23,995 nt of DNA from positions 1 to 23,995 of IMG/VR virus record IMGVR_UViG_2534681697_000018; one strand, given 5' to 3'. Origin of the DNA: a virus (lineage: Duplodnaviria > Heunggongvirae > Uroviricota > Caudoviricetes). Positions 9,001 through 12,000 of the stretch are shown in pieces. The position numbers were made by a program. How positions within the stretch are numbered: the first letter of the stretch is position 1; every line of letters starts with the position of its first letter.

Positions 9001-12000
9001 ACATTCCGCAACGTGAATTTCTGGGGCTGTCTTCTGCCAGCCAGCAGGAGCTGCAACAGGTTATCAGTCATTTCTGGAAGGAGGTTCTGCCATGACAGAA
9101 CAACGCCCTGAACTGCGCACACCGGGGAGCACCGTTGCGGCCGCAGAGCACATTGTGGCCTGGCTGCAGACGGCCCTTCAGGGGGACACCCCTGACCGGG
9201 CTGACGTGGTGGAGCGTCACATCGGCCAGTTCAACAGCCCGGATGAAGTGAAACGCTATCTGTCCGGTCGCACCGGCTGTATCCGTGTCGCGGCCCTGCG
9301 TGTCCGGGATATCAACCCGCGCGGCGGGCTGTCCGGTCTGGTCACCTGGGTGGCTTACATCATGGCGACGGATTCGTGGGGGTATTCCCGCGACGTGCGC
9401 TGTGAAGTGCTGGCCGGAAAGGTGATCAAACGCCTGCTGTCGTCGGATGCCACAGCGGGCATGGGGGCTGAACGCATGGCTGCTGATGTGCGGGCAGACA
9501 ACATTTACTCCGTCAGCCTCGACGGGCTGGGTGTCACCATGTGGGCGGTGACGTGGGAGCAGGAATTCCGGCTGGATGAAGAGATTGATCTCGCCGCGCT
9601 CCCGGATTTCCTGCGCCTCGGGGCGACACTGCGCAGCGGCGAACACACTGAAATTAACGACGTGATCCATGTACGGGGTGACGATGGAACAGAAACTGAT
9701 TAAGCCAGCGCGGGAAAACGTCCGTGTCCGTAAACCGGATGGCGCACATTTATCCCCGGAAGAGGAACGTCTCTGAGGTGTACTGGCAATAGCGGACACT
9801 ACCATTTGTTCTTTTTTTAAGCAGCCATCTGATGATATTTTTCCCTGAAGGCTGCCGGGGAGATATTCCCCAGACGAGAGTGACGACGCTGACGATTGTA
9901 GAAAATCTCAATGTATTCCCGTATTACTGAGATGGCTTCATCCCGGTTATTAAAACGATAGTGGCTCAGGCTCTCATTTTTCAGCGTTCCCCAGAAGCTT
10001 TCCATCGGAGCGTTGTCGTAACAGTTACCTTTACGCGACATTGATGTTTTCAGACCAAACTGCTCCTGTATGACCCGGTAATCGTATGCGCAGTACTGTG
10101 AACCTCGATCAGAGTGGTGGATTAGCCCGGCAGGTGGGCGCTGGCTCCTGAGCGCCATAAACAGGGCTTTACCTGTCAGCTCTTTTGTCATGCGCTCTCC
10201 CATGGCGTAGCCGACAATTTCGCACGTATAAACATCTTTGATGCCAGCGAGGTACAACCATCCCTCCTGTGTGGCAACATACGTCAGGTCCGCCACCCAG
10301 ACCTGATTTGGTGCTGTAGGAGCGAACGTCTGGTTCAGCAGATTTGGCGCAACTGGCAGATTGTGGTTCGGGTTCGTAGTCGCTCTGAACTTGCGTTTCT
10401 GCTTACAGCGTAGCCTTAGCTCCTTACGAAGACGTGCCAGTCGGTCACGACCAACGATGATGCCATTCTCTGCCAGCTCCGTCTGGAGCCGCCGGGTTCC
10501 ATATGTTTCGCGAGTGCGGATATGTGCCACCTTAATCTCCAGTTTTAGCCGCTCATCACTTTGTTTTCTGTCTGAGGGTTCATGCTGTACCCAGTTGTAA
10601 TAACCGCTCCTGGATACACCAAATACCTGACACATCGCTTCAATGGGAAATTGTTGTCGCCATTGTTCGATTAACGCGTATTTTTCAGCGACTCCTGTGC
10701 AAAATACGCTGTTGCTTTTTTTAATATATCTCGCTCAAGGCGAGCTTCATTTAACGCCTTACGCAGTTGCAGAATTTCAGATTCCAGTTCAGCCACCGTG
10801 CGGGAACCAGGAGTACCGAGCCCTTTTCTGGCGGCGGTAACCCATTGTCCTAAAGTGCCTTCAGGAAGGGATAATCGGGAAGCGCCTTCACTGATCGAAA
10901 GTTGATTTTCAAGAACCGTTCTGACAGCTTCGGCTTTGAACTCTTTAGAGTAACGTTGGGTTTTTCTGCTCATTATTAGCTCCTTCTGATGCCATTCTAT
11001 TTCAGGAAGGAGTGTCCGTTAAACTCAGGCTACCTCACTCAACGTCTGCGCTTACTGGCTGCGCCGTGAAGCCGAGGGAGATGTGGAAATAACCACACTT
11101 CCGAAAAATAACAACAAAACCAGAGGGAAAAAATAATGTCGCTGGGTTCCATTCCTGATGATATCCGCGTCCCGCTTGTCTGGATCGATATCGACAATTC
11201 ACAGGCGCTGGAGGGTGCATCCGCGCAAAGCCGAAAAATTCTGGTCATGGGCCATGCGGTATCGTCCGGCAGCGCAGACGCCCTGTCACTGACCCGTATC
11301 ACCAGTGACAGCCAGGCAGACCAGCTTTATGGCAAAGGGTCGATGCTGGCTGAAATGCTCAAAATGCTGCGTCGTGCCAACACGTACACGGAAACCTGGG
11401 CGATGCCGGTTGCCGCTCCTGAAGGCGCTGCCGCAAAAGCCACGCTGACCGTGCTGGGTACAGCGACCGAAGCCGGAACGGTGGCACTGCTGATTAACGG
11501 TGTGTCCGTTCAGGTGAGCGTGAGCGCCGGGGATACGAAGGAAAACATTGCAAAAGCCATTGCTGATGCGGTGACGAAAAAGCCTGCCACGCAGGTGGCC
11601 GCTGCGGTGAAGGATGATGCCACGGATACCGTGGAGCTGACCGTGAACTGGCACGGCGTCACCGGCAACGGTGCCGACGTTCGCCTGAACTACCACACCG
11701 GTGAAGCCTTCCCGGCAGGTGTGAAGGTGACCGCAACCGCGTTTACCAGCGGCACCGGGACACCGGAAATGGCAGACGCCGTTGCGGCCATCGGCCCGGA
11801 GTGGTTTACCGATATCATCGCCCCGTTCACCGACACGAAAAGCCTGAACACCCTGCGTGATGAACTGCTGAACCGCTGGGGGCCGCTCAAAATGATGGAA
11901 GCGCAGCTGTGGACGGCGTTTTGTGGCACGCACGGGGAAACCGGCACGTTTGGTGAAACCCGCAATGACTGGCTGATTAGCTGCATCGGCACCAACCTGT

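What the first reader, a model, noticed from the sequence alone, without database searches (positions are those of the whole stretch)
9771..11040. Apparently active IS600-like element inserted just upstream of the tail sheath gene
The element has imperfect terminal inverted repeats, a 3-bp direct repeat (CTC) on both flanks, an intact orfA, an intact orfB core and an unbroken A7 slippery motif linking them. It looks like a simple, possibly recent insertion that could still transpose. It sits in the 168-bp spacer between the gp38-like gene and the sheath gene, in antisense orientation to the tail operon. It is therefore likely to be polar on sheath-to-fibre expression, unless an outward promoter in the IS drives them.
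Basis: seen in the sequence. Interest (0 to 1): 0.4.

Follow-up and report, generated by a model that had tools for sequence, protein, structure and literature searches.

The report
IS600 splitting a prophage gp38 gene
An intact copy of the common Shigella jumping gene IS600 sits inside a small conserved phage gene just upstream of the tail sheath gene, in a Mu-like prophage that had already lost half its genome, so this is ordinary genome decay.

Summary
Window 9774-11037 (1264 bp, transposase on the minus strand) is IS600 itself. It is 100% identical end to end to annotated IS600 copies. It has 19/27 imperfect terminal repeats, an exact 3-bp duplication (CTC, 9771-9773 and 11038-11040), an intact orfA and orfB, and an in-phase A7 slip site that gives a 385-aa OrfAB.

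The interpretation needs two corrections.

1. The element is not in a spacer. It splits a 61-codon gene (9684-9773 plus 11041-11136) after codon 30. That gene is the DUF2635 homologue of phage Mu gp38, and it overlaps both the upstream 203-aa gene and the sheath start codon.

2. The prophage is a 15.6-kb tail-module remnant (7810-23439) bracketed by inverted ISSfl3 ends. No regulatory, lysis or head gene of the intact relative is left. Four other assemblies share the same ISSfl3 junction but have an empty IS600 site, so the truncation came first. Polarity on a working tail operon is therefore largely moot.

No outward promoter towards the sheath gene was found. The window is Shigella boydii ATCC 9905 contig AERN01000091.1. 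IS600 expansion in Shigella is well documented. The finding is already known and of low interest.

The parts
9774..11037 (-). IS600, complete copy, 1264 bp (IRL end at 11037, IRR end at 9774)
   Evidence: 100% identity over its full length to copies annotated 'IS3-like element IS600 family transposase'. Boundaries are fixed by comparison of three independent insertion sites.
9771..9773 (.). Target-site duplication, left copy (CTC). It is also codon 30 (Leu) of the disrupted gene.
   Evidence: The flanks overlap by exactly 3 bp on the uninterrupted relatives L001, L003, L004 and L007-L012.
11038..11040 (.). Target-site duplication, right copy (CTC)
11011..11037 (-). IRL, the terminal inverted repeat next to orfA (TGAGGTAGCCTGAGTTTAACGGACACT in IS orientation)
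   Evidence: Alignment of the two ends; 19 of 27 positions match.
9774..9800 (-). IRR, the terminal inverted repeat at the orfB end
10994..11022 (-). Promoter-like site (TTAACG-17-TAGAAT), partly inside IRL and reading into orfA. Predicted only.
   Evidence: Consensus scan, 9 of 12 matches; 2 sites were found in the region against 1.4 expected in shuffles, so this is weak evidence. The position is typical of IS3-family indigenous promoters (general knowledge).
10671..10973 (-). orfA, 100 aa, HTH_Tnp_1 DNA-binding protein
   Evidence: PF01527, E = 1.5e-20
10716..10722 (-). A AAA AAA slippery heptamer for the -1 programmed frameshift from orfA into orfB
   Evidence: Phase checked. An identical copy carries a RefSeq two-piece CDS annotated 'programmed frameshift'.
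9817..10973 (-). OrfAB transposase, 385 aa, via the -1 frameshift. It has a DD(35)E catalytic core (rve).
   Evidence: Fusion built. Its span matches the RefSeq CDS, IS positions 65-1221. Pfam rve, rve_2, rve_3 and HTH_21. The DDE residues were read directly from the translation.
9684..9773 (+). 5' part (codons 1-30) of the disrupted DUF2635 / Mu gp38-like gene. As it stands it now ends at the TGA formed by the first three bases of the IS (9774-9776).
11041..11136 (+). 3' part (codons 31-61 plus the TAA stop) of the disrupted gene. It holds the conserved W-RR-A-GDV core. The stop overlaps the sheath ATG (TAATG).
   Evidence: The reconstructed ORF matches PF10948, E = 1.1e-10, 41.5 bits against a 26.6-bit cutoff, and phrog_208, E = 5.5e-17. 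The motif aligns to Mup38.
9092..9703 (+). 203-aa gene upstream, at the Mu gp37 position.
   Evidence: Synteny with Mu Mup36-Mup37-Mup38-L and with L001. phrog_490. No significant direct similarity to Mup37.
11136..12611 (+). Tail sheath gene, 491 aa, intact
   Evidence: Pfam Phage_sheath_1 and Phage_sheath_1C above cutoff
7810..23439 (+). Mu-like prophage remnant: connector and tail genes only, running from just inside the gp35-like gene to the tail-fibre region
   Evidence: Homology to the intact prophage L001 starts at L001 12719 and ends at 27325. The remnant is bracketed by ISSfl3 ends.
5679..7809 (+). ISSfl3 (IS66 family), partial; its end abuts the prophage remnant
23440..23995 (-). Second ISSfl3 end in inverted orientation; it runs off the contig
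   Evidence: 99.6% inverted repeat of 7254-7809; Pfam DDE_Tnp_IS66

Best explanation
A complete copy of IS600 (IS3 family), apparently able to transpose, inserted with a 3-bp CTC target duplication inside the 61-codon DUF2635 gene, the homologue of phage Mu gp38. That gene lies between the gp37-position gene and the tail sheath gene of a Mu-like prophage in Shigella boydii ATCC 9905.

The insertion cuts the gene after codon 30. This removes its conserved core and separates the upstream genes from the sheath gene by 1.27 kb of antisense IS sequence.

When the insertion happened, the prophage was already a dead remnant. ISSfl3-associated deletion had removed everything to the left of the gp35-like gene. 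By comparison with the intact relative, that includes the Gam, gp16, Mor-family, lysis, terminase, portal, protease and major-head genes.

The event is therefore one more neutral step of IS-driven decay of the kind well documented in Shigella. It is not the switching-off of a working tail operon.

Shown here: element identity and integrity, exact boundaries, the target duplication, the disrupted gene, and the order of events. Inferred: that the copy can still transpose, by the IS3-family copy-out/paste-in route using OrfAB made by a -1 frameshift, and that it is polar on downstream genes.
For: - Identity: 100% identical over 1264 bp to annotated IS600 copies. The identical copy in L002 carries a RefSeq transposase CDS annotated 'programmed frameshift'.
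- Integrity: orfA and orfB are intact with the expected domains. The A7 run is in the correct phase and gives a 385-aa OrfAB.
- Target duplication: 3-bp duplications at three independent insertion sites. The empty site is recovered exactly in L001 and nine other loci.
- Disrupted gene: the reconstructed 61-aa ORF matches Pfam DUF2635 above the curated cutoff and phrog_208. It is annotated as a DUF2635 CDS in the listed uninterrupted E. coli relatives. The same gene, in the same place and overlapping the sheath start, is Mup38 in Mu and occurs in a Vibrio phage.
- Order of events: L004, L005, L010 and L012 align continuously across the ISSfl3/prophage junction but lack IS600.
- Rarity: the junction is absent from 5426 E. 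coli genomes and from the GTDB species representatives. Of the 25 contigs read that carry the 203-aa protein, the only place shown with IS600 here is the window's own contig.
- Background: IS600 is one of five IS expanded in all Shigella species (PMC7373316). A 3-nt IS600 target sequence is used in PMC9397093.
Against: - Transposition competence is inferred from sequence integrity and identity to other copies. It was not tested.
- No significant stimulatory RNA structure was found downstream of the slip site (z = -1.4).
- The function of DUF2635/gp38 is unknown: there is no PDB relative and no paper in the searched library. The phenotypic cost of losing it cannot be stated.
- Another Mu-like prophage elsewhere in the genome could supply late activators in trans. 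Only this contig was available, so that could not be checked.
Confidence: 0.93

Rival explanations
1. One reading: an intergenic insertion in a 168-bp spacer of an otherwise functional Mu-like tail operon. Its main consequence would be polarity on sheath-to-fibre expression.
For: The IS is antisense to the tail genes and lies 95 nt upstream of the sheath ATG. All tail ORFs downstream are open in this strain. No outward promoter was found that could compensate.
Against: The supposed spacer is a conserved, annotated 61-codon gene. The prophage has no DNA homologous to the intact relative's left 12.7 kb, which holds the Mor-family, lysis, terminase, portal, protease and major-head genes. The truncation predates the IS600 insertion.
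Confidence: 0.04
2. Assembly artefact: the IS600 copy was placed here by mis-joining of repeat-containing contigs in a draft assembly.
For: The source is a draft WGS contig (AERN01000091.1) that crosses several multicopy IS elements.
Against: The two flanks are precisely adjacent in relatives and carry a perfect 3-bp duplication. A random mis-join would not produce that.
Confidence: 0.02
3. The tail module is a retained, tailocin-like cluster. It would be expressed from IS-borne or trans-activated promoters, and the IS600 insertion would be a functional knockout or modulator of it.
For: Every tail ORF from sheath to fibre is open in this strain, with lengths equal or close to those in the intact relative. 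The ISSfl3 transposase gene reads towards the remnant.
Against: Sister assemblies carry independent frameshifts or deletions in the sheath gene (L004 440 aa; L005 252 + 239 aa; L012 337 + 161 aa). That pattern is expected from neutral decay, not selection. No lysis or regulatory genes remain.
Confidence: 0.02

Closest known systems
IS600 (IS3 family, IS3 group), first described in Shigella sonnei
   Same: The sequence is 100% identical over 1264 bp to annotated IS600 copies. It has TG...CA ends, imperfect IRs, orfA/orfB with a -1 frameshift on an A-run, and a 3-bp target duplication.
   Different: Nothing detectable. Only the insertion site is particular to this strain.
IS600 insertion in lacZ of STEC O121:H19 (PMC9397093)
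   Same: The same element, inserted in antisense orientation into a gene of an operon, with a 3-nt target sequence, inactivating the gene.
   Different: There the insertion has a phenotype and is reversed by IEE-mediated excision. Here the target is a gene of an already defective prophage, and the presence of iee was not examined.
Phage Mu gp38 (Mup38, DUF2635) and the gp36-gp37-gp38-L(sheath) gene block
   Same: The same gene order and the same overlap of the small gene with the sheath start codon. The W-RR-A-GDV motif is shared. The reconstructed ORF matches Pfam PF10948.
   Different: Pairwise similarity to Mup38 is limited to a 12-residue core. The prophage is a different Mu-like lineage, closest to E. 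coli VL40 (99.5% over the 1020-bp reconstructed empty site; 99.7% and 97.5% over the two flanking blocks).
IS-driven prophage and genome decay in Shigella (PMC7373316)
   Same: IS600 is one of five IS expanded in parallel in all Shigella species and creates strain-specific insertions and pseudogenes. This window shows IS600, ISSfl3 and an IS10-like element nested around a prophage remnant.
   Different: None in kind.

Membership tests
IS600 (the specific element) | At least 95% nucleotide identity over the full length to IS600 | tested here: met
   100% identity over 1..1264 to copies annotated 'IS3-like element IS600 family transposase'. The ISfinder reference itself was not available, so the name rests on GenBank/RefSeq annotation of identical copies.
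IS3 family | Two consecutive ORFs, orfA (HTH) and orfB (DDE/rve) in the -1 phase, joined by a programmed frameshift on an A-rich slippery motif | tested here: met
   orfA has HTH_Tnp_1; orfB has rve, rve_2 and rve_3. A AAA AAA is in phase and the -1 frame is open, giving a 385-aa OrfAB. RefSeq notes 'programmed frameshift' on the identical copy. Frameshifting itself was not measured.
IS3 family | Imperfect terminal inverted repeats ending 5'-TG...CA-3' | tested here: met
   Ends read TGAGGT...ACCTCA; 19 of 27 positions match.
IS3 family | Short (3-4 bp) direct target duplication | tested here: met
   CTC on both sides. The flanks overlap by 3 bp on ten uninterrupted loci. Two other insertion sites also have 3-bp duplications.
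IS3 family | DD(35)E catalytic triad with K/R seven residues after the E | tested here: met
   Read from the OrfAB translation: D in WVADLTY, D in HHSDRGSQY, then 35 residues, then E in NAPMESFWGTLK with K at E+7. The rve profile is matched end to end.
IS3 family | Copy-out/paste-in transposition through a circular intermediate with a junction promoter | not testable with these tools
   Needs detection of IS circles, or a transposition assay.
DUF2635 (PF10948) / Mu gp38 | Match to the Pfam profile above the gathering score | tested here: met
   The reconstructed 61-aa ORF scores 41.5 bits against a 26.6-bit cutoff, E = 1.1e-10, covering profile positions 1-44 of 46.
DUF2635 (PF10948) / Mu gp38 | Position immediately upstream of the contractile-tail sheath gene in Mu-like phages | tested here: met
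   Mu Mup38 lies upstream of L, Vibrio phage NVP1028O_38 upstream of its sheath gene, and the E. coli VL40 DUF2635 CDS upstream of its sheath gene.

The most novel reading that the evidence does not exclude
The 15.6-kb tail module, bracketed by inverted ISSfl3 ends and with every tail ORF open in this strain, could be a retained tailocin-like or IS-mobilisable cassette rather than junk. The IS600 insertion in gp38 would then be a recent functional knockout or switch. It could be reversible if an IS-excision enhancer is present.
Probability: 0.03. Interest if true: 0.4.

Novelty: already known. Interest (0 to 1): 0.08.

Why it matters
It matters little beyond correct annotation. The case adds one strain-specific IS600 insertion to the well-documented IS expansion in Shigella.

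The useful corrections are these:
- A short 'intergenic spacer' upstream of a Mu-type sheath gene is really the small conserved gene gp38/DUF2635. That gene is easy to miss when it is split.
- The affected prophage was already defective, so no phenotype is expected.
- The insertion could serve as a lineage marker for ATCC 9905-like S. boydii.

Tried and rejected
- PDB sequence searches for the DUF2635 protein and the 203-aa gp37-position protein gave nothing usable.
- A literature search for DUF2635 found no papers.
- Direct BLASTP of the 203-aa protein against Mu gp37 was not significant. The gp37 assignment therefore rests on synteny only.
- Folding the RNA downstream of the A7 site gave no significant frameshift-stimulating structure (z = -1.4).
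- The promoter/terminator scan found no outward promoter in the IS facing the sheath gene. Terminator-like hairpins on the + strand were at the chance level, 3 against 2.1 expected.
- By eye, the IRR end has an outward TTGCCA (-35-like) hexamer, as expected for an IS3-type junction promoter. It points away from the sheath gene and finds no -10 in the flank.
- The Rfam scan of the whole window found no family.
- A junction search in the GTDB representative genomes gave 0 hits, and one in E. coli complete genomes gave 0 of 5426.
- Attempts to name the organisms of CP026836, CP026824 and CP027027 through neighbouring plasmid accessions failed.
- I considered and rejected a longer target duplication based on the AACGTCT(C/G) motif seen on both flanks. 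It is a native tandem 8-mer of the uninterrupted gene, present in the reconstructed sequence that matches relatives without gaps.

Full report
**Observation**

The sequence at 9771-11040 contains a 1264-bp element, 9774-11037, flanked by CTC on each side (9771-9773 and 11038-11040).
- Its ends read TGAGGT...ACCTCA. The two termini match at 19 of the first 27 positions (alignment printed).
- On the minus strand it carries a 100-aa orfA (10671-10973) and an orfB frame open down to 9817.
- Pfam places HTH_Tnp_1 on OrfA and HTH_21, rve, rve_2 and rve_3 on OrfB.
- Megablast of the element gives 100% identity over positions 1-1264 to copies on Shigella boydii plasmids and in E. coli VL7S7, all annotated 'IS3-like element IS600 family transposase'.
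- The identical copy in L002 carries a two-piece RefSeq CDS annotated 'programmed frameshift', spanning IS positions 65-1221. These map to window 10973 and 9817.

So this is IS600 itself, not merely IS600-like.

**Frameshift site and transposase**

In IS orientation the A7 run lies at IS positions 316-322 (window 10716-10722). In the orfA frame the codons read TTA AAA AAA GCA, so the heptamer A AAA AAA is in the phase needed for tandem -1 slippage. The -1 frame is open from just upstream of the site.

Joining the frames there gives a 385-aa OrfAB, the length implied by the RefSeq CDS. Reading that translation, the catalytic residues are present: D in WVADLTY, D in HHSDRGSQY, then 35 residues, then E in NAPMESFWGTLK with K seven residues after E.

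Folding the 100 nt downstream of the slip site did not give a structure better than shuffled controls (z = -1.4). No stimulatory element is shown.

**Boundaries and target duplication**

Aligning the window against the intact Mu-like prophage of E. coli VL40 (L001) gives two blocks: window 7810-9773 on L001 12719-14682, and window 11038-13770 on L001 14680-17413. The flanks therefore meet with an overlap of exactly three bases, which is the signature of a 3-bp target-site duplication.
- The same 3-bp overlap is seen on L003, L004 and L007-L012; on L005 the overlap is also 3 bp, at coordinates shifted by an upstream indel.
- Two other, independent IS600 insertions (L002; L007/L008) share exactly the same terminal bases and are flanked by their own 3-bp duplications, GGT/GGT.
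- PMC9397093 also works with a 3-nt IS600 target sequence.

An AACGTCT motif appears on both flanks. It is a native tandem 8-mer of the target (AACGTCTC AACGTCTG), not part of the duplication.

**What was hit**

Removing the IS and one CTC restores a 61-codon ORF: MEQKLIKPARENVRVRKPDGAHLSPEEERLNVCAYWLRREAEGDVEITTLPKNNNKTRGKK.
- Its ATG at 9684 overlaps the last 20 nt of the upstream 203-aa gene.
- Its TAA (11134-11136) overlaps the sheath ATG (TAATG).
- The ORF matches Pfam DUF2635 (PF10948) at 41.5 bits against a cutoff of 26.6, and phrog_208 at E = 5.5e-17.
- The reconstructed 1020-bp empty site aligns over 100% of its length to 45 E. coli genomes. Every listed record annotates a 'DUF2635 domain-containing protein' between the hypothetical gene and the sheath gene. 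In L001 this CDS is 14593-14778, and the sheath gene starts at 14778.
- In phage Mu the same small gene is Mup38 (gp38, 'DUF2635 domain-containing protein'), again overlapping the start of L, the sheath gene.
- A Vibrio phage has the same arrangement.
- BLASTP against Mup38 aligns the conserved core, AYWLRREAEGDV to SFWIRRLAAGDV.

That core (residues 34-45) lies downstream of the insertion point, which is after codon 30. The 30-aa stub now ends at the TGA formed by the first three bases of the IS. No in-frame start codon lies between the in-frame TAA at 11020-11022 inside the IS and codon 31 of the 3' half (direct reading of the sequence). The gene is therefore inactivated.

It has no Pfam match, matches phrog_490, and shows no significant similarity to Mup37.

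**Context**

The window is contig AERN01000091.1 of assembly GCA_000193915.2: L006 is 100% identical and the contig length is 23,995. A table in PMC6397287 lists that assembly as S. boydii ATCC 9905.

Layout of the window:
- Positions 1 to about 4378 are chromosomal (macA, ybjX, ybjD, aqpZ).
- aqpZ is cut by an IS10-like element, 4379-5679, with a DDE_Tnp_1 transposase.
- That element abuts a partial ISSfl3 (IS66 family), 5679-7809.
- Homology to the intact prophage begins only at 7810 (L001 12719, five bases inside the gp35-like gene) and ends at 23439.
- From 23440 a second ISSfl3 end follows in inverted orientation, 99.6% identical to 7254-7809.

Everything that L001 carries to the left is absent: the Gam, gp16, Mor-family, endolysin, terminase, portal, protease and major-head genes. 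What remains is a 15.6-kb connector-plus-tail remnant.

**Order of events**

L004, L005, L010 and L012 come from four other NCBI assemblies. They align continuously with the window from inside ISSfl3 across the 7809/7810 junction to 9773, and then directly on from 11038. They share the truncation but have an empty IS600 site. The ISSfl3-associated deletion is therefore older than the IS600 insertion.
- These sisters carry their own lesions in the sheath gene: 440 aa in L004, 252 + 239 aa in L005, and 337 + 161 aa in L012. This is what neutral decay predicts.
- Of the 25 contigs read that encode the identical 203-aa protein, the only place shown with IS600 at this site is the window's own contig.
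- The junction is absent from 5426 complete E. coli genomes and from the GTDB species representatives.
- A sibling prophage that still has its head genes (L007, L008) has a separate IS600 insertion at the start of the tape-measure gene, in the opposite orientation.

**Consequences**

The native genes gp36, gp37, gp38 and sheath overlap start to stop, so they are probably translationally coupled (inference). The IS places 1.27 kb of antisense sequence with no recognisable gene on that strand between them. It also carries a promoter-like site at 11022-10994 that fires in the opposite direction, into orfA. Polarity on the sheath gene is therefore plausible.
- No promoter-like site facing the sheath gene was found inside the IS. 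The only + strand match (11108-11137) ends beyond the sheath ATG.
- Terminator-like hairpins on the + strand are at the chance level.
- The sheath gene keeps its own AGAGGG Shine-Dalgarno sequence.

All of this is secondary. The remnant retains none of the intact relative's upstream DNA, and so none of the Mor-family gene or any promoter located there.

**Comparison and verdict**

Every defining feature of IS600 and of the IS3 family that can be tested in silico is met. The mechanism itself was not tested: OrfAB made by a -1 frameshift, and copy-out/paste-in through a circle. IS600 is one of five IS that have expanded in parallel in all Shigella species and generate strain-specific pseudogenes (PMC7373316).

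The finding is real, but it is an ordinary instance of a known process in a public, annotated genome. The placement in a spacer, the naming of the neighbouring gene and the implied functional importance are not.

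Noticed in passing
window 7254-7809 and 23440-23995: The prophage remnant (7810-23439) is bracketed by the same end of ISSfl3 in inverted orientation (99.6% identical over 556 bp). This looks like a composite-transposon arrangement, or like the product of IS-mediated deletion or inversion. The right copy runs off the contig.
   Followed up: partly
window 4379-5679: An IS10-like element (ends CTGAGGAATCCCC...GGGGATCCCTCAG, 407-aa DDE_Tnp_1 transposase) truncates aqpZ to 192 aa and directly abuts a 5'-truncated ISSfl3. 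No matching target duplication is visible on its two sides, which suggests recombination or deletion between IS copies. The element was not named.
   Followed up: partly
L007 7115-8377 and L008 7115-8378 (equivalent to window 13470-13472): A sibling Mu-like prophage that still has its head genes, in two other assemblies, carries an independent IS600 insertion at the start of the tape-measure gene. It is in the opposite orientation and has a GGT duplication. The L007 copy is 1 bp shorter.
   Followed up: partly
L004 4778-6100; L005 4777-6251; L012 4778-6251: In the IS600-free assemblies that share the same truncated prophage, the sheath gene is itself damaged by a deletion or frameshifts (440 aa; 252 + 239 aa; 337 + 161 aa). 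In the window it is intact at 491 aa. Different lineages carry different inactivating lesions.
   Followed up: partly
window 9743-9788 (native sequence spans the insertion point): The IS600 target lies in a native tandem 8-mer, AACGTCTC AACGTCTG. Whether IS600 prefers such repeats was not examined. The two other target duplications seen here were both GGT.
   Followed up: no
window 20637-21712 compared with L001: The tail-fibre region is mosaic relative to the closest intact prophage. DNA homology breaks between 20637 and 21712 and drops to 92-96% beyond. The fibre ORF is 331 aa here against 366 aa in L001.
   Followed up: no
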